64,000 bases of DNA from Ptychomitrium polyphyllum (lineage: Eukaryota). The position numbers and the translations under genes were made by a program. Shown one piece after another: positions 1,788 to 59,014 of the stretch. Numbering within the stretch: position 1 is the stretch's first letter; each line of letters begins with the position of its first letter. The notes beneath the pieces were generated by a model, which saw only the letters and a program-made list of their open reading frames with translations, did not search any database and had not been told where the DNA came from. The DNA lies in contig OZ316776.1 in NCBI GenBank assembly GCA_973851085.1, positions 10,974,001 through 11,038,000 on the forward strand, read 5' to 3'.

Positions 1788-4700
1788 TTAAGCTCTTGCC
1801 GAAGTCCACGATATGTCGAACTCTTTACCGATGTGGAGCCCTAGACCTGAAATTTCCAGCTTCTGCCCTTCGTGCAACACTTCCACCAGATGCTTCCCGT
1901 TTACATGTACCGAACTTGGAGCATAATCCACACCTAACACCACAACTTTGTCTACAATCCAATCCTCCTTCAGTGCATACTCCCCATGCTTCACATGTGA
2001 AGTTAGAGTGCCATTGTTTTTTCGAAGCTTGTTGTCCACATGAGCGGCAGCTTTGAAGCTCACAAGACTCGATTGATGTGGTTTAAGAATCATGTCAATC
2101 TCTTCCCCGTTGTCCAAGAATACATCACCTGATGCGGATCTTACTCTAATGTCAGAGGTGCTCGGTAGCGCAACAAGCAGAGTGAACGGTGTCTTGCGCG
2201 CGGCGGTTGATGTCAAGGCGCTCTCCTGCATGGGGATGATGGCGCCCTCGTGGACGTGCACGTTGATCACGTCCCACGGCGCTGGCAGGGTGAGACTCTC
2301 GCCCTTGCTGACGATCTGGGAGTGATCGAACATGTTGTACCAGGTGCCTTTCGGGAAGTACGCGTCAACCGTCGTGGCGTTCTCGGTGATGACAGGAGAG
2401 ACGAGAATGTGGTTACCGATGAGGAACTGGTAGGAAACGTCAAGTGTTGTGGCGTCGGTCGGAAACGCGAAGAACAGAGGTCGGATCATTGGGTACCCTT
2501 TCGTGTGCGCTTCATAGTTGAGCGTGTAGTAGTACGGGAGTAGCTGGTACTTCAACCCCAACGCCTTCCTCGCGGACGCCGTGGTCTTGTCGAAGAGATA
2601 AAACTCCTTGTTGTCATTGTCCCTGTTGGAATGCGCTCGCGAAAACGGGTGAAACGCCCCAGTCTGGATCCACCGGCTGCAGAGCTCATCGGACGCCATA
2701 TCGTAGAACCCACAGATGTCCGCCCCTACCATCGGAATCCCTGCCATGCCCGAGTTCATCACCGTCACGATCGAGTACCCAATATCCTCATATGTCGCCT
2801 TGTTATCCCCCGTCCAATGCGCCGTATAAGCACCAGCACCGATGAACGTTGACCTCGACAACAAGAACGGTCGCTTCCCTCTTACCGTCGTAAGCGCAAC
2901 CTTCGTCGCGACCGCCTCCGCCATGCCATACAAACTATGCGCATCATACTCCGTCGTCCCATCATAATGCTGCACCGTCATCGCCGCCGTAAGATGTCCG
3001 AGCGTCTCGTACGTCCCGAAGTGATTCAGCTTGAACGGTGGCTCATCAAGCGTCGTGTGCGTCTCACTGCACTGCAAGTAGCACGCCGTGACGCCTTCAA
3101 GAATCGTCCCGTTCCAAGTGCAGTACGTCCCGGTGCAGAAATTCGATACCTCATTCATGTCGATCCACATGCCGTCGAACGGCAACTGATCGTGGAAGAG
3201 CTGCACTTCGTTCGTCCACCATTGCGTTGCCCTAGGGTGTAAGAAATCAGGGTAAACCACGGGCCCCGGCCACACTTGACCTATGTAGTTCGACTTGCCG
3301 TCTTCGTTCTTCAGGTAGATGTCTTGCTCCAATCCTCGCTTGTAAGTCTGATAATCATCATACGCTGTGCCGATCCCGGGGTCGACGAGGATAACGTAGT
3401 GCTGCCCATTCGCGTGAAGCTCATCAACAAAACCTCGCCACTCTTTCATCGGAAACCTCTCTTCATCGTGGGTGAAGTCCAAGAATCTGTCTGAGTAGTC
3501 GATGTCGTTCCACATCGTGTCCAACGGGATCTCCGCCTTCTTGAAATTCTCCACGATCGTCTTCACGATCGAGACGTTGCGGTATCCCCATCGGCATTGG
3601 TGGAACCCTAGCGCCCAGTATGGTTGAGCGGCGGGGCGACCCACGAGCTGCGTGTATTGATCCACGACTTGCAAAGGAGACGGGCCTGGGAAGAAGTAGA
3701 AATCCAAGACGCCGCCGATGATCCGGAACGTGAGCGAGTCGTCGTTGTAGGTTACTTCCATGCCGTTGCTGTTGAGGAGCAGTACGCCGTGCGCGGCTCC
3801 GCCCTCTCGCACATCGACGTAAAACGGCCAAGCGCCATACAGATCAATGTCAGGAAACAGCGCAGCGATATCGGTAGTCCAGAGCGTGTAGGTCTTGCCT
3901 TTCTTGAGCTTCAACCCGTCCGGCCGCGAGCTCTCGCCTAACCCGAACAGAGTGGTGGTTTTCGGGAGCTGTGTGGAGATTTCAATGTACTGGTCCTTGA
4001 AGACGAGAGGGTTGAAGCCAGCGCCGTCTGCCGGTGGCGTTGAGTTGAACAAGACCTCGCCGGTTGCGATGCGCATCACCGCGAATCCGAACGGTTGCGT
4101 GATGTGTATGATGGTCAGCACCGGCTCCGTTACGGGATCCAGATTCGCAGAGATTGTTAGCCGGGGAATCATGCTCTGTGGAACCTCAAATCTCTGCTTC
4201 GCATCGTCGGAGATGTACACCCGCACTTGCGTGCTCTTCTCGACCCTGCAAGTGGAAGAAGGTGCAAACATGCAGTAACGTATTGATCAGCCATGCGGCA
4301 GTTGACAAGAAAGCTGTGTACTTCATTGGAGAAATTCAAACCTGCGATGGTTCATGATGCACTCTCGTACTGTCAAGATTACGATTCTAACTTAGTATTC
4401 TCATGAACTTCTCAAGGTGTTTCAAACTTTCACGGCAATCAATCATCCTGCTACAAGCTAGTACGTCCGATTCTACTCACGTTGTCGATCATTGCGCGGT
4501 CTATCACTGCAGGCATGTTTGATCTTGTGCAGCTTACACACTAATACATCATTTCCTTGGATGGGAATTAAGGCAGCTGCTAATCATCCGCAAATCAAGT
4601 AGCAAAGACATGATTAAGCTCGCTCCTTAATAAACACTCTGAGAAACGTTTTCAATCTCCACATGCAATTTTTCAAAGTCTTCTTTTATTATCCAAAAAG

Positions 4701-27496: not shown

Positions 27497-30400
27497 ATGT
27501 CACTGGAGAGTCTAATCAAGATGCAAAGCGCTGGCGTCCGGAACATCGACGATGCCAACACGCCGAGGCCGGCAGGCGTGGCGCAGGGCGCCGTTCTCGT
27601 CACATTGGACGTCACGAAGGAGATCTGCACGGCGGCTGTCTACTGGGCGCTCGGCAATGTCGTCCGCCGCGGAGATAATTTCAAAATTGTGGGCATCATC
27701 ACGCACGTCTCCAATCCAAGTACGCCGCCACCTACCACGTCGTTCTGGACAGGTCTCCAATCGCTTTGTCTAGGAACTTGGCAGTTAGTGATGCGTTTTT
27801 TCCATGCTGTGGCGTTCTGAACACAAACGTTTCCGATCGTTTTGTTTAGAAAGCTGGTAGTTGACGATCGTTGCGTTTTTTATGCTCAGTGGGTTTCCGA
27901 ACTCGGGTCGACAAGAACAGCTGGATTGGCAGCAACGGCATCATGCTCCAACACGAATTCGGAATTAAGCGCACCATTTTGGAGAATATCGCCCACGTTA
28001 AGGAGTGGTGTGACAAAGCGGGAGTAAGCACCATACCAATCTAGCCTTATGCCAAAAAATTCCTTGTAGATTGATTGCTAAATCATGCACCGCGCGCAAA
28101 TTGCAGGTGACATTGCAGGTCGATGTGAAGGCTGGGTACTCAATCAAGCAGATTGTCGTCGATGAAGCTAAGGCCATCGGCGCCTACCACGTCATCCTGG
28201 ACAAGTGAGCTAGCGCTATCGTACTTGCGATATGACTTTCAGGGATTGTTTGATGTGGCGGTTGGGTTTTGGGGTTTGGGATTCATGGATAAGTCTGCAT
28301 TGATTTCAGGAACATGAAGAGTGATCGGAAGTATTTTGTGGACAATTTGACGTGCTTTGTGTCGCGAGCGCGGAACAGCGGCGGAGTCGACACCATCCGA
28401 TCCTTCTCCGTGTCGAAGCAGCTGCCGCCGCTTGTGCCCACTCCACCCAATACCGTGCGGAGCAGCTTGCAGGCATCGCAGCCCATTCCGACGTCGGACT
28501 CCGCGGTGTCTTTCGGATCCAATCATTCGAATCATTCGGTCTCCTCAGGCTCCTTCGACATAGGCGCCTCCAGCGATGACTTCCTCACTCAGGACAGCGA
28601 TTTGTATTCCGCAGCGCCTACCACTGGCGAGTCTCTCGACGAAGCGCCGATGTACCGCGCGTCAATTCCTATTCGTACTGCAAGCGGAGCAAATGTGGAG
28701 AAAGCACCCGCTGCAATGCAGCGTCAGACGCCTGAGGCGGGATACAATCTCGTCAACCGGAAGCCCGCTCTCCGGAAGTGGCTGGCGGAGGAGGATCAAG
28801 CGCAATCGCCGGCTGATGTCTCTCAGTATGATAACCACAATCCAAGTACATTGAATGACCGCCCCCACAAAATCCTCGGGCCGGCTCCAGTTGTAGAGCA
28901 GCAGGTGCGCCGCACTCCAACGACCTTCCTTGAGAAATCTGTGCACGCTCCGCCAATGCCCGTCGTGCCCATAAATCTTCAACTTTCCCCAGGACGCGCC
29001 AATGTTCCAGTGAATGTACCAGAGAAGGTGACCACTCTGCATGCCCCACCGTTGTCGAGGATGCCGTCGCCCCCGCACAGCAAGCTGTCGCAGAGCTTGC
29101 ATAAGACGGTGTGGGTGTGGACTCGGAGCAAGGAGGTGATGCGGAGCGCTGTGGAGGTTGGCTGGACGACATTCATCTTCACTCCCGACACCAAGTTCAT
29201 GGCCCCGCAGTGGACTTGTATGTCAAACCCTTAGACCTCACTTGCAAGTTCTGTATCTGGACTTTGGCCTTGAATTTTGCGTAATAATGTTTGCTGGAGC
29301 AATGATGAAATGAGTTGATGATGTACAGCTATCGAGTGGATCAAGCCCCTGTTTCTAGAACGAGGACGGTTTCTGAACCAGGAGGGCAAGCAAGTGGCCC
29401 TCCTTGGCCAGGTCTACTCTGGCGAGCAGCTGGATTACCTCCCTGCGATGATGGGCGGCGCTGAAACCGTTGTTATCAATGATCTCGACTGGCAGGTTCG
29501 TGATCAAAGTAATCAGCGAATCGCTTGGCTTTTCGTAGTTACGTAGAAAATCGTTGGTTGACATTCCTTTCGGATTTGTCCTTCGTGCAGATTATCCCCC
29601 CTGAAGACGTGGTCGCAGCCTTCCAAGGAAGGCGCACTCAGCTCTTCGCTACGGCCAACACCGCCTCCGATGCCCAAGTATACCTCGAGGTATGTACAGA
29701 CCCTCACCTCACCTTAGCCGATTTAGCTTTGAGGTCAATTTGCTAATAGAAGAGTTCATCTGAAATTTTCACTTGCAGGCTCTGGAGGTGGGCATGGATG
29801 GGGTGGTGCTGCACACAGACAACCTCGCCGAAATCGGTTTACTTCGGGTATGTATTCACAACCGCAATCTTGCCACCTCGATTAATAATCAACATAATTC
29901 CTAGCTCAATTGTGCAAATAGGGAGGGATTGTCTGAGGTTTTTGTTGATTGCAGGATTACCTGACCAAGAAGAAGATAGAGAAGGAGCGTGCCCAAGAGT
30001 GGACGAGCGTGCAGCCACCCATCAAGGAGGTGGGTGGGGTGGGCGAGCCGGAGCCGGAGCCAGAGCAGGAACTGGAACTCCCCGGATTGACGTCCGAGCA
30101 CTCCATGACGAGGTCCGAGACCAGTAACGGGGTGCAGCGGGTGGCCTCCTCGCCAAGATCGGATTCGAATCCTCTCAACCGCGCCGGCTCGTCGCCGCGG
30201 CTCATGGAATCGCTCAGTAACTGCTCAGCACTCACGACGTTCGTGGCACCGCCAGCCACACCAGGGTTGCGCCTTGTGAACGCCACAGTCAAGAGCGTTG
30301 TCTCTGTGGGCGAGGGTGACCGAGTGTCCGTGGACCTCTGCAACCTGCTGAATTCTGGCGAGGCTATGCTTGTGGGTTCCTTCTCCAAAGGCATGTTCCT

Positions 30401-31023
30401 GGTGCATTCCGAGGTCCAAGCCAACAACACAACGCGTAAATCATTCCGTGTTAATGCGGTGAGCAATGATCTCCACTCTGCACGTGACTTCAAAATCCAT
30501 ATCTCACAAGTGATCTCGATAATATGAAGCTAATGACTATTTTGCAACGTTTTCTGCAATGGCAGGGTCCTGTACATGCGTACACAGGCATGGCTGGAGG
30601 GCGCATCACCTATCTGTCTGAACTGGAGTCAGGAGGGCAGGTACTGGCGGTGGATGCGCATGGCAACTCCCGCACAGTTCTTGTGGGGCGTGTTTCGATC
30701 GAGTCCAGGCCTCTCGTTCTTGTTGTGGTTGACGTTAACGGTGAAAACTTCAGTGTCATGCTTCAACAATCGGATTCAGTACGCCTTGTCATTCCTGCAG
30801 GTGGATTACACTCTCAACCTTACTTCTGCAGTTCTAGGTTTAAGTAAAGAAAACTTGTATTGAATGGATATGTACAGTACCTTAGATTTCAGCTAACTCA
30901 AGTTGATGTTGTTTTTCTTCAGAGCATCAAAGTCCAGGTAAGGAAGCCATCGCCGTGACAAAACTGCTACCGGGAGACATTGTCGTTTTGAGTATGGAAG
31001 ACGACGAAGCATATGAGCAGTAA
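27497..31023 (+). CDS. Chimeric protein: RLCK-type USP-like N-terminal domain + Ser/Pro-rich linker + type II 3-dehydroquinate synthase (AroB'-like) domain; 10 exons, about 845 aa
   Basis: Exons 27497-27719, 27890-28023, 28107-28204, 28310-29217, 29329-29495, 29591-29689, 29779-29847, 29955-30458, 30566-30800 and 30923-31023 are all GT-AG and total 2538 nt with the frame open. USP-like part: VLVTLDVTKEICTAAVYWALGNVVRRGD...HVILDKNMKSDRKYFVDNLTCFVSR. DHQS-II part: KTVWVWTRSKEVMRSAVEVGW, DWQIIPPED, LEALEVGMDGVVL, GEGDRVSVDLCNLL, MLVGSFSKGMFLVHSE, FRVNAGPVHAY, YLSEL, VGRVSIESRPL. Confidence 0.85.
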
Positions 31024-32070: not shown

Positions 32071-32757
32071 CTACTTACAGACGAAGACATTCCAGTGAAA
32101 GATGAAGCGGGGACCGTCGTTGGGGGCATTGTCAGCCACCACGTAGCCATGTGAGCCACGGAAGTGCCCTGTTCCGCCAAGGATGATCAGCTCGTAAGGC
32201 GTCTTCTTTCCTCCGACATTACCACTGAATGTAATTGTGGAGCCCTTGTACTTGCCCTCTACGAATGTGATCTTGCTAAGGAGCTGCAGTGCTTCCTCAC
32301 TATTCTGGTCCGTAACAACGCCCCAGCCTCTCTCGCGACCCAGGAGCGTGCTGTCCGCGCCCAAACCCTCCCTCACTTCATTGTCAAAAACGAATGACGA
32401 CCCCCACTGAAGTGGTTTGGTGTTAGGAGGAAGGTTTGCCAGCTTCAAAGTTGCGGTCTTGTCATTTGGGTCGGCAGAGCGGATCTCGTGGATGTAAAAC
32501 TCCAAAGTTTCTTTCACCTTTTGCTTGTCCTCGTGGGTTAGAAGCTCCTTCAGCCCACTTCTTACAACTCCTGATGCATTCCTCCTAGATGGCTCATTGG
32601 GGAATCTCAGGGCAGTGGTGGATTCTTGGGCGATTCTGTGGGTGCGAAGTGCCAGAGTTGAAGAGCGGAAGGAGGACGAGCCGAAGAACTGCTGGCGTGT
32701 GGAAGTGATGGCTGTGAATGCCGAATGACTTCGCTGCAAGAGTGATGTGGCTGCCAT
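32071..32757 (-). CDS. Intronless dirigent-domain protein with a putative plastid transit peptide (228 aa)
   Basis: Dirigent motifs LEFYIHE, WGSSFVFDNEVREG, LLGRERG, YKGSTITFSG and ELIILGGTGHFRGSHGY. The N-terminal ~65 aa are Ser/Thr/Arg-rich with few acidic residues and no hydrophobic core. Confidence 0.85.
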   Translation of the reverse strand: MAATSLLQRSHSAFTAITSTRQQFFGSSSFRSSTLALRTHRIAQESTTALRFPNEPSRRNASGVVRSGLKELLTHEDKQKVKETLEFYIHEIRSADPNDKTATLKLANLPPNTKPLQWGSSFVFDNEVREGLGADSTLLGRERGWGVVTDQNSEEALQLLSKITFVEGKYKGSTITFSGNVGGKKTPYELIILGGTGHFRGSHGYVVADNAPNDGPRFIFHWNVFVCK

Positions 32758-34964
32758 TATGGTTGCTCTGCTCTGGCCTTGAAATCAATCCTTTTTGCTT
32801 TCAACTCTATAATGCAAAGTAAAAGTATCTTCAGCACAATCTCCAAGGAAATGGCAGTCAGAATTAGAACCCCAACGAGCTGAATCGGATCAGGCCTGTG
32901 CAATGACCGGAGTAGCTCTTTGTGATTGTTCAATGTAATCAATAACATGTGTGATTTACTTCAATGACAATAGCCGAAAACATATAAAGCAAATGCTGCC
33001 AAGTAGAAAGCCTGTAGAAGGGCACTACTCGAGCGACACACAAAAATCGGCTATGTCCAACCACAGTTGCAAAGACAAATCAGCATCTTCATTTGCAGCA
33101 GCAACTTTGACATCATCAAAATTGCAACATTGGGTTTACAACCGAGGCTACTCAATACGCAGAAAAAGCAATAGTGATACAAAACTAGTGGAATCAATCG
33201 TTACGTTTCCCAGGAGACCCACATTACAACAAAGACTTACATCGTGCTGAAGGAAACTCGAATTGAACTCTACTCTGATCCAGAATCACAATGCTAGAAG
33301 CTAGGAGTTCATTGAACTCACAGGTGTCTGACCGATTTGAAGGAGGTAGAGCAGGTATTAGCCGGTCCGACGAACTCTTCAGCGGCAGACCTTGCAAAGA
33401 AAACGAGTGTGAGGAGTTAAATGCGTGGATTCAGCTACGGCTGCTGAACTAGAAGTGACACCAGTATCACGTGGGATCATGTGAAGGCAAGTTGTGCGGT
33501 AAACGAAAGTCATTCATTCTTCGCAATTGACGAAGATCGATTTATGCTATGAAAATTATAGAAAATAAAAATAAAATTACAACACTAAATTCCGCTCAAG
33601 CAAAGCCCTAATTGTTTCAGAATATGCTACCGATAGTTTTTTGTAGCACGTTGAAACGGAAGGGAATGACTGGAGCTTTGCGTGCAGGGAGCCTTGTACC
33701 ATTTGCCCCTAGACGAGTGCAACACAAGAGGGCTACAGTAGTTCTGTAAGGCAGTCTTTTTACAAGCTGACCTCGACTGTCACAGTGAAAATAACTTACC
33801 AAACACCGTTGTTTGAATAGCCCTTTCGTCTTTCCTGTGTAAAGGAAAACGCTACTCTCACAACATGTGTGAAGAATCCATCGAAAGCACATTAGATGGT
33901 GTAGCCCATGATTAAATAGAAATAAATTCCTTATCTTCAGGATCGACTCATGTCCAGTCACAGGAAGAAGCTGGCACCCAGCATTAGTGTCTTCTCGTTC
34001 TTTGCTAGCCCACGTTTTTCATGTGTGCGCACTCAGCAAAAACTGTTTCTTCACGGTTTCATCGACGTCCCCTATCCGTTGGACATTAATGAAACAACCG
34101 GTCCACATTTCATTAATCCAATGGACAAATCGACATGACACCAATGATAGGGACCTTCTCATCACCTGTGCTCCCCGTGCGTGATTACATTTCAAGGACG
34201 ACTTTCCCCAGATGCTATGCAAGAAGACTCTCATAAGTTTATCTGGTGGTACTACAAGGCTTTATGAAGAAGAAACTTAAACCTTTCGTGACGTCCTTCA
34301 AAGGATAGTCTAAGTTGTCGAAGAAGCTACTGCTGATTCACTAATTACTTGGCTGTACACTTGGCTGTTACCCACTACAGCAGTAACTTCCAGTAGATCC
34401 TGATCCAAGTGCTATGGTTCGTTATGCAGCGACCCCAAGATCCATAATCAGCCTTGATTTGCAAATCCACTCTGTTTTGAGCATGTATAAAAGAGAAAGA
34501 ACTAGAATCCAATAATGAATAAATATAAGAAATTCAAGACAAACTAAGCCCATAGACACTAAAGTAACGGAGGACAACTTTGAAGAATCGTCGCAACCAG
34601 ATAAGACCATCAATACTAAGTTCTTAAACCCATTACGATTTCAAATTCCTAAACCTTCGCTTCTTTAATATCCTCTTCTAAGAACGCCTGAACTCACGAA
34701 ACACGGCCCAATCACTAATCTTCAAAACGGAAAGTCGGACATCCATAGGGTAAAAAAGGTCACGTGTCTCAGCCCACTGCAATCATACAGTGACGGGGCA
34801 CACATATAAATTCCTGTATGGACATATTCGCCCACATTGCTTCAACAGAATCTTAAACGGTACTACTTATACTGAAACACAGAAGTCTCTTCAAAATTGA
34901 TGTACAATAAGCCCCTCCGTCCGAAGCTAGCTGTTGCAAGTGAAACGATCCGAAGTAGAAAATA

Positions 34965-39629: not shown

Positions 39630-42491
<2,862 letters not shown>

Positions 42492-47445: not shown

Positions 47446-59014
<11,569 letters not shown>

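What the first reader, a model, noticed from the sequence alone, without database searches (positions are those of the whole stretch)
29591..31023. The DHQS-II domain of the fusion looks like a pseudoenzyme
Seen: the fold-level motifs are intact, but several polar motifs differ from the family consensus as I recall it. IP(A/L)EN reads IPPED; SE..E..Y...RPFRVNAG reads SEVQANNTTRKSFRVNAG; GRVKIE reads GRVSIE; LQNAET(V/I) reads LQQSDSV; and the C-terminal (A/G)RH(T/F)G motif is replaced by EAYEQ followed by a stop at 31021. Splice sites and the frame are still preserved. Inference: the protein is under selection for structure or ligand binding rather than catalysis.
Basis: partly seen in the sequence, partly recalled or inferred. 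Interest (0 to 1): 0.75.

Follow-up and report, generated by a model that had tools for sequence, protein, structure and literature searches.

The report
Moss dead-enzyme fusion on kinase chassis
This moss gene joins a stress-protein-like domain, otherwise found on plant cytoplasmic kinases, to a type II dehydroquinate synthase that has lost many otherwise invariant residues yet is conserved from peat mosses to true mosses, so it is likely a catalytically dead module that would act as a metabolite-binding regulator, and its predicted core fold is an unexpected circularly permuted intein-type domain.

Summary
Observation confirmed. A 10-exon gene (27497-31023, +; 845 aa; all GT-AG) encodes USP-like domain, disordered linker and DHQS-II module. 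It keeps 28 of 40 residues that 253 plant and prokaryotic homologues keep at 36-40; lost are Cys691, Tyr724, Arg728, Pro729, Thr748, Lys778 and the RHxG...E..E tail. Orthologues in Ceratodon, Physcomitrium (three) and Sphagnum share most changes, the intron phases and the missing RHxG; no alternative last exon was found; both DHQS domains are under purifying selection. One correction: Asn516 and NAET vary in an intact GriH-like bacterial subfamily, so they are not evidence of death. The gene is one branch of a moss family in which a USP domain related to those of receptor-like cytoplasmic kinases is fused to DHQS-II, ranging from intact copies to copies with only a degenerate C-domain. Models show DHQS-II as a partial TIM barrel plus a circularly permuted HINT (intein) fold; most lost residues map to the HINT domain. 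Best reading: pseudoenzyme kept as a ligand-binding regulator (0.5); altered enzyme 0.25. No catalytic residues of the family are experimentally known, so inactivity is inferred.

The parts
27497..31023 (+). Whole gene, 10 exons: 27497-27719, 27890-28023, 28107-28204, 28310-29217, 29329-29495, 29591-29689, 29779-29847, 29955-30458, 30566-30800, 30923-31023; 845 aa
   Evidence: GT-AG, open frame; exon-by-exon match to Ceratodon P0006; seven intron positions and phases shared with Sphagnum orthologues
27584..28409 (+). USP-like (adenine nucleotide alpha-hydrolase fold) domain, aa 30-185, related to the N-terminal domain of plant USP-type receptor-like cytoplasmic kinases
   Evidence: model of Ceratodon orthologue matches UspA 3s3t Z 11.8, rmsd 3.5, 130 aligned; homologues with kinase domains at 25-32% identity
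28410..29099 (+). Disordered Ser/Pro-rich linker, aa 186-415, with short conserved blocks (one at 28758-28784, one at 29055-29075); same exon as the end of the USP domain and the start of the DHQS domain
   Evidence: pLDDT under 50; conservation in clade D; single ORF 28293-29231
29100..29981 (+). DHQS-II N-domain, predicted partial (beta/alpha) barrel, aa 416-575; keeps 13 of 14 invariant positions (N516D)
29982..30266 (+). Clade-specific disordered insert, aa 576-670, between barrel and C-domain
   Evidence: spacing 120-227 residues in six clade D proteins against 45 in all seven others measured; pLDDT under 50
30267..30999 (+). DHQS-II C-domain, aa 671-838, predicted circularly permuted HINT fold; 13 of 52 invariant positions changed
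   Evidence: orthologue model 717-879 vs SICLOPPS intein 5ol5 Z 13.2, rmsd 2.9, 134 of 140 aligned
30408..30568 (+). Loop aa 718-735 (spans intron 8) carrying Y724N, R728K, P729S; inferred to sit where the extein lies in the permuted intein
   Evidence: the placement is inferred from end-to-end collinearity
30686..30703 (+). GRVSIE, K778S; Lys in 253 of 253 references
30761..30781 (+). LQQSDSV in place of LQNAET; a position that also differs (DDWH) in a bacterial subfamily
31000..31023 (+). Truncated tail and stop; RHxG and the last conserved strand with two Glu are absent

Best explanation
The gene encodes a conserved moss fusion of a USP-like domain and a DHQS-II module that is likely catalytically dead and would work as a ligand-binding regulatory module, sitting where related plant proteins carry a kinase domain. 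Shown: the architecture, the loss of 12 of 40 family-wide core residues including the whole RHxG tail, conservation of this state from Sphagnum to Physcomitrium and Ceratodon, and purifying selection. Predicted: the module folds as a partial TIM barrel plus a circularly permuted HINT domain. Inferred: the family's active site lies between the barrel face and the HINT centre and is closed by the Tyr/Arg loop and the RHxG tail; this clade lost the closing residues but kept the barrel face and 16 of 25 polar core residues, so it would still bind the cofactor (NAD+) or a sugar-acid intermediate without turning it over; the long insert would let the two domains open and close, and the USP domain with the conserved linker motifs would pass the state on to partners in the cytosol. 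Intact fusion paralogues (Ceratodon P0035, Physcomitrium P0037) and the stand-alone Sphagnum copy would keep the ancestral chemistry.
For: Core 28 of 40 against 36-40 in 253 references, 201 of which keep all 40; intact fusion paralogues keep 40 of 40, so fusion alone does not cause the losses. Lost positions kept in 56 of 56 held-out homologues. Tyr724 and RH are lost in all 12 derived fusion copies aligned. dN 0.15 (barrel) and 0.27 (C-domain) against saturated dS of about 2.8 versus Sphagnum; 0 non-synonymous against 9 synonymous changes in 323 codons of the two domains between two Sphagnum loci. Barrel identity exceeds C-domain identity in four of five Sphagnum-versus-other clade D pairs (78-79% vs 65-72%), the reverse of intact pairs; C-domain change equals or exceeds barrel change only on the two clade D stems of eight stems measured. 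The same USP domain carries kinase domains in 6 of 35 long hits scanned. A further class keeps only a degenerate C-domain (20-30 of 58 invariants, no barrel), showing that the module is kept without its chemistry.
Against: No structure or mutagenesis of any DHQS-II was found (literature), so the catalytic role of each lost residue is inferred from invariance. 16 of 25 polar core residues remain and polar enrichment among losses is not significant. NAET and Asn516 differ in an intact-looking subfamily. R728K is conservative and three clade D proteins keep Arg. One Physcomitrium paralogue (P0024) has a fast barrel, and crown-group rate ratios do not single out clade D (0.75-0.94; liverworts 1.02). 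The USP domain shows 4 non-synonymous against 1 synonymous change in the Sphagnum pair (small counts). No ligand or partner was identified; the NAD or substrate site of the family is not located by any search.
Confidence: 0.5

Rival explanations
1. Neofunctionalised enzyme: the module still catalyses a reaction, but a different or partial one (for example only the barrel-based step), and the changes retune the site.
For: 16 of 25 polar core residues kept, among them Glu515, Arg689, Asp693, Glu719, Arg731, Asn733, Arg776, Glu780; barrel keeps 13 of 14 invariants; the new residues are themselves fixed (Asp516, Ser729, Asp804-Ser805 in all six clade D proteins); a bacterial subfamily changes the same NAET and Asn positions and looks intact.
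Against: That subfamily keeps Tyr, Arg-Pro, Thr, Lys and RHxG, which clade D loses; the replacements at Lys778 (S/Q), Tyr724 (N/S) and the tail differ within the clade; a variable insert separates the two domains; sister classes lose other subsets, down to no barrel.
Confidence: 0.25
2. Dead module kept only as a protein-interaction surface, for example a non-catalytic subunit that pairs with the intact fusion paralogue and tunes it, with no small ligand.
For: Intact and degenerate paralogues coexist in Ceratodon and Physcomitrium; class E keeps the C-domain fold with almost no polar core.
Against: Retention of 16 polar core residues across Sphagnum and true mosses is more than a bare scaffold needs; the oligomeric state of the family is unknown.
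Confidence: 0.18
3. Ordinary active DHQS-II with tolerated substitutions, or a gene model that misses a last exon.
For: Both domains are predicted to fold normally; databases label several paralogues as dehydroquinate synthase.
Against: No reference falls below 36 of 40 core residues; no RHxG downstream; orthologues lack it too.
Confidence: 0.04
4. Decaying duplicate under relaxed selection.
For: Progressive loss of conserved residues along the lineage.
Against: Open frame and splice sites in all orthologues, omega about 0.05-0.10 against Sphagnum and zero replacements in the Sphagnum pair; 79% and 73% of barrel and C-domain positions shared by at least five of six clade D proteins against 13% in the insert.
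Confidence: 0.03

Closest known systems
3-dehydroquinate synthase II (AroB', MJ1249, H. salinarum OE1475F; PF01959; EC 1.4.1.24)
   Same: Clear homologue over both domains (Pfam DHQS); same predicted folds.
   Different: Fused behind a USP-like domain and linker, 95-residue insert, 12 of 40 core residues and the tail lost. The archaeal enzyme is described as oxidative deamination and cyclisation with NAD (passages of PMC4162585); MJ1249 and OE1475F themselves were not fetched.
Stand-alone plant DHQS-II homologues (e.g. Sphagnum P0063, Marchantia P0067, angiosperm copies)
   Same: Direct source lineage: all moss copies group together apart from liverwort and vascular copies.
   Different: They keep the core residues and carry a short N-terminal extension that looks like a plastid leader (my reading, not tested); no function found in print.
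USP-domain receptor-like cytoplasmic kinases (e.g. P0331 Hevea, named 'inactive protein kinase SELMODRAFT_444075'; P0294 Diospyros)
   Same: Same order: USP-like domain, long Ser-rich linker, C-terminal effector domain; USP domains 25-32% identical.
   Different: DHQS-II module in place of the kinase; fusion USP domains form their own group (99/99; only five non-fusion rows, none a moss kinase).
GriH/BagC-like 3-amino-4-hydroxybenzoate synthases (NF002625 subfamily, NF041224)
   Same: Also differ at Asn516 and NAET.
   Different: Keep Tyr, RP, Thr, Lys and RHxG; five of the six plasmid copies lie next to an annotated ADH-synthase gene. My copies pass NF002625 (5 of 6) but not the BagC cut-off, so their product is assumed, not shown.
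HINT fold, SICLOPPS (circularly permuted) inteins 5ol1/5ol5/5ol6/5ol7
   Same: Best structural match of the C-domain among 48,161 chains: Z 12.7, rmsd 3.2, 140 of 145 aligned, end to end; weak Hint-type Pfam hits in 14 of 52 DHQS-II proteins.
   Different: Natural protein, 8-12% identity; Ala at the position that registers with intein Cys1; no sign of splicing motifs.

Membership tests
DHQS-II family (PF01959), by homology | Profile match over both domains | tested here: met
   window exon 8 at 71.5 bits, cut-off 22.2; orthologues 266-313 bits
Active DHQS-II | Family-wide invariant residues | tested here: not met
   28 of 40 against 36-40 in 253 references
Active DHQS-II | C-terminal RHxG and last strand | tested here: not met
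   absent, no alternative exon
Active DHQS-II | NCBIfam equivalog cut-off | tested here: inconclusive
   orthologues score far below, but the intact plant copy P0063 is below as well
Active DHQS-II | NAD-dependent conversion of ADH to dehydroquinate | not testable with these tools
   needs an assay
Pseudoenzyme | Fold retained | tested here: met
   orthologue model, pLDDT mostly above 85 in the domains, same matches as the intact copy
Pseudoenzyme | Maintained by purifying selection | tested here: met
Pseudoenzyme | Loss of residues known to be catalytic | tested here: inconclusive
   invariant residues lost, but none is experimentally assigned
Pseudoenzyme | No measurable activity | not testable with these tools
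   needs an assay
Universal stress protein domain | USP fold | tested here: met
   Z 11.8 to 3s3t, 11.6 to 1mjh; Pfam Usp hits in paralogues are below cut-off
ATP-binding USP | G-2x-G-9x-G-S/T motif (recalled) | tested here: not met
   no such motif after the HVILD strand, read by eye in the alignment
USP-type receptor-like cytoplasmic kinase | Protein kinase domain | tested here: not met
   no kinase family hit in orthologues
HINT fold | Backbone match over the whole domain | tested here: met
   Z 12.7-13.2, 132-140 residues, predicted models only
Self-splicing intein or Hedgehog Hint | Cys/Ser at position 1 and terminal His-Asn | tested here: not met
   Ala734 in the Cys1 register (weak alignment, P 0.006, ungapped extension by five residues); order is permuted
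GriH-like subfamily | DDWH motif with intact RHxG | tested here: not met

The most novel reading that the evidence does not exclude
Mosses built a family of metabolite-sensing proteins by swapping the kinase of a USP-kinase for an archaeal-type DHQS-II and then stripping it step by step into pseudoenzymes; and DHQS-II itself is a natural circularly permuted intein-fold domain that does small-molecule chemistry, with this gene marking the residues of that site.
Probability: 0.35. Interest if true: 0.85.

Novelty: new variant of a known kind. Interest (0 to 1): 0.64.

Why it matters
Plants carry an archaeal-type DHQS-II for which I found no function in print, and no structure of the family is solved. 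This moss family gives a natural series from intact enzyme to bare fold in Physcomitrium, where genes can be knocked out, so it makes two open questions testable: what the plant protein binds, and which residues do the chemistry. A metabolic module in the slot of a signalling kinase would be an unusual route to a sensor. The predicted permuted HINT fold would extend a fold described for protein splicing and related transfer reactions (passages of PMC7664689) to small-molecule metabolism; fold databases that I could not consult may already record it.

Tried and rejected
Alternative last exon: five GT sites in and just after the last exon tried (those up to the stop) against every AG to 32100; 14 products contain an incidental RH, none RHxG. 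RNA for the window: no RNA holder listed; the two listed runs were contigs, one held the stretch as unspliced DNA, the other gave nothing; no evidence either way on expression. Complex prediction of an intact and a clade D module with NAD: tool not available, no result. Solved relatives by sequence: none. Atlas search of the C-domain without DHQS clusters: no usable hit; the USP query did not complete. Polar enrichment among lost residues: not significant. Intein C-terminal profile against the C-domain: no alignment; block B register unreliable. Whether the derived classes B, C and D share one loss of Tyr and RH: unresolved (SH-aLRT 87 in the quick tree; open in the careful tree). No own genome held, so paralogues in this species were not counted; none elsewhere in the window. 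Earlier findings on the fusion: none by words or sequence. Ten literature searches listed no paper on the fusion, on plant DHQS-II function or on a HINT fold in DHQS-II; the library lacks most subscription journals. Atomic coordinates were not returned, so spatial clustering of the lost residues was not measured.

Full report
Gene. The finding lies in the 3' half of a 10-exon gene on the + strand, 27497-31023, with nine GT-AG introns and an open frame of 845 codons. The fusion is not an artefact of exon joining: the end of the N-terminal domain and the start of the DHQS domain lie in one 908-base exon. Exons 6 and 8 hit Pfam DHQS.

Orthologues. The closest proteins are Ceratodon KC19_2G060800 (91% over 339 DHQS columns), three Physcomitrium genes and Sphagnum proteins; they form one clade, here called D (100/100). 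All lack RHxG; the Ceratodon and Physcomitrium proteins stop within a residue or two of the same place. Full-length Physcomitrium proteins of 947, 836 and 828 residues occur on contigs of 3.3-3.8 kb and end the same way; such uninterrupted frames are best read as spliced transcripts (inference). Two complete Sphagnum loci from metagenomes share seven intron positions and phases with the window, the last one included; their last exon runs on to the usual end but has an insertion in place of RH. No downstream exon restores RHxG in the window.

How far from the family. References: the best 120 of 956 short hits, all plant or unnamed, and 77 of 80 prokaryotic loci (three cut by contig ends were dropped). 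Of 72 columns conserved in 90% of both sets the window keeps 52, every reference 67 or more. A second set of 56 proteins (30 best and 20 hand-picked lower-scoring archaeal matches, 6 of 14 plasmid hits; at least one, L127, repeats a genome of the first set) was then added. Seven of these carry DDWH for NAET and Ile/Leu for Asn516, while keeping everything else that the window loses; five of the six plasmid ones pass the NF002625 subfamily model and sit next to an annotated ADH-synthase gene. So those two motifs are subfamily positions. On the stricter core of 40 columns the 253 references keep 36-40 and the window 28; lost are C691, G703, Y724, R728, P729, T748, K778, R842, H843 and the tail G, E, E. 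Against the reading: 16 of 25 polar core residues remain, and polar losses are not significantly enriched (p 0.07; p 0.24). The characterised proteins MJ1249, OE1475F and GriH, and AT3G28760, were not fetched by name.

Selection. Against Sphagnum, synonymous sites are saturated while dN is 0.15 in the barrel and 0.27 in the C-domain (omega about 0.05 and 0.10, rough); linker and insert have dN 0.7-1.1. Between the two Sphagnum loci the two domains show 0 replacement and 9 silent changes in 323 codons; the USP domain shows 4 and 1. In four of five Sphagnum-versus-other clade D pairs the barrel is better conserved than the C-domain, the reverse of intact pairs; on a fixed tree the C-domain changes as fast as or faster than the barrel only on the two clade D stems, while crown ratios are not distinctive.

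The family. Longer hits reveal a set of moss fusions with the same N-terminal domain: A, intact (40 of 40 in two proteins, 39 in a third); B, Sphagnum, 36; C, 31-34, which also lose barrel-face residues; D, 26-32. A search with the N-terminal domain found class E: 8 of 35 long hits scanned have this domain plus only a degenerate DHQS C-domain, one of them clustering with Physcomitrium PHYPA_024709; the eight keep 20-30 of 58 invariants and have no barrel. Six of the 35 carry a kinase domain instead. The 16 fusion USP domains tested group apart from five kinase-linked or USP-only ones (99/99), which fits one fusion event, though no moss kinase was in the tree. Named fusions came only from mosses; liverworts gave stand-alone copies; the searches were capped, so other lineages are not excluded.

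Folds. No solved relative exists by sequence. A model of the intact Sphagnum copy (pLDDT 85.7) matches (beta/alpha) barrels over residues 49-205 (phosphoribosylanthranilate isomerase Z 12.6, rmsd 2.6, 148 aligned) and SICLOPPS inteins over 216-384 (Z 12.7-13.1, rmsd 2.6-3.2, 133-140 of 139-145 residues, end to end). In the Foldseek-independent search of 48,161 chains the intein ranks first and is the only row of 50 covering that domain. SICLOPPS constructs place the intein C-part before the N-part (recalled), so the domain is a permuted HINT fold. Sequence hints agree: weak Hint-type hits in 14 of 52 proteins, all under cut-off, and a weak profile alignment (P 0.006) that puts intein Cys1 at the Ala of NAG. 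The Ceratodon clade D model gives the same two folds plus a USP fold, with linker and insert disordered. The window loses 1 of 14 barrel invariants, 13 of 52 in the HINT domain and 6 of 6 in the tail. The invariant tail has pLDDT near 60 in the intact model, as expected of a lid ordered by ligand or partner (inference).

Mechanism. Passages of PMC4162585 describe the archaeal step as oxidative deamination and cyclisation, stimulated by NAD in a coupled assay, and note that the M. maripaludis homologue was dispensable; a table row of PMC8305020 calls the halophile enzyme only partially characterised. White 2004 was not read. Passages of PMC8697445 give the GriI/GriH reaction; passages of PMC11439500 and bioRxiv 10.1101/2022.04.05.487141 did not mention the type II protein; all other papers were seen as search listings only, and no supplements were opened. 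With no assigned catalytic residue, inactivity is inferred from invariance. I commit to a dead, ligand-binding regulator (0.5): the closing loop and tail are gone, the binding face is kept, a flexible insert separates the domains, and the module occupies the effector slot of a USP-kinase layout. Rivals: altered enzyme 0.25, ligand-free scaffold 0.18, active DHQS-II 0.04, decay 0.03.

Verdict. The proteins are in databases as uncharacterised or as dehydroquinate synthase; ten searches found no description of the fusion family or of the fold. New variant of a known kind; interest 0.64.

Noticed in passing
P0063 residues 216-384 (model m7d6de5ff0874); window 30267-30999: The DHQS-II C-domain of the whole family is predicted to be a natural circularly permuted HINT fold behind a partial TIM barrel.
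   Followed up: yes
P0264, P0265, P0271, P0279, P0296, P0305, P0329, P0332: A class of fusions with USP domain and only a degenerate DHQS C-domain, barrel lost; includes Physcomitrium PHYPA_024709.
   Followed up: partly
L146, L151-L156: A DHQS-II subfamily with DDWH in place of NAET, in Streptomyces and Sinorhizobium plasmid clusters and as a second copy in archaeal genome G071.
   Followed up: partly
No stand-alone Physcomitrium or Ceratodon copy is among the best 120 short hits, whereas Sphagnum has one; in those mosses the intact copy found is itself a USP fusion. Short Logan proteins P0208 and P0245 may be fragments or short isoforms.
   Followed up: no
P0041 (Ceratodon KC19_10G157000): A near-intact paralogue that has begun to drift: Asn to Ile in the barrel motif, Pro to Ser in RPF, RHPG tail, and a repeat-rich linker.
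   Followed up: no
P0348 (Sphagnum fallax) and P0260 (Calypogeia): P0348 lacks the second half of the barrel in its gene model; P0260 has two tandem USP-like domains of this type and no effector domain hit.
   Followed up: no
window 32074-32784 (-): Single-ORF dirigent-like gene with a Ser-rich leader, tail to tail with the fusion gene.
   Followed up: no
window 1791-4286 (-), 47449-57398 (-), 41011-41130 (+): A glycoside hydrolase 31 ORF, a chromodomain-containing remodeller-like gene, and a short kinase-like exon.
   Followed up: no
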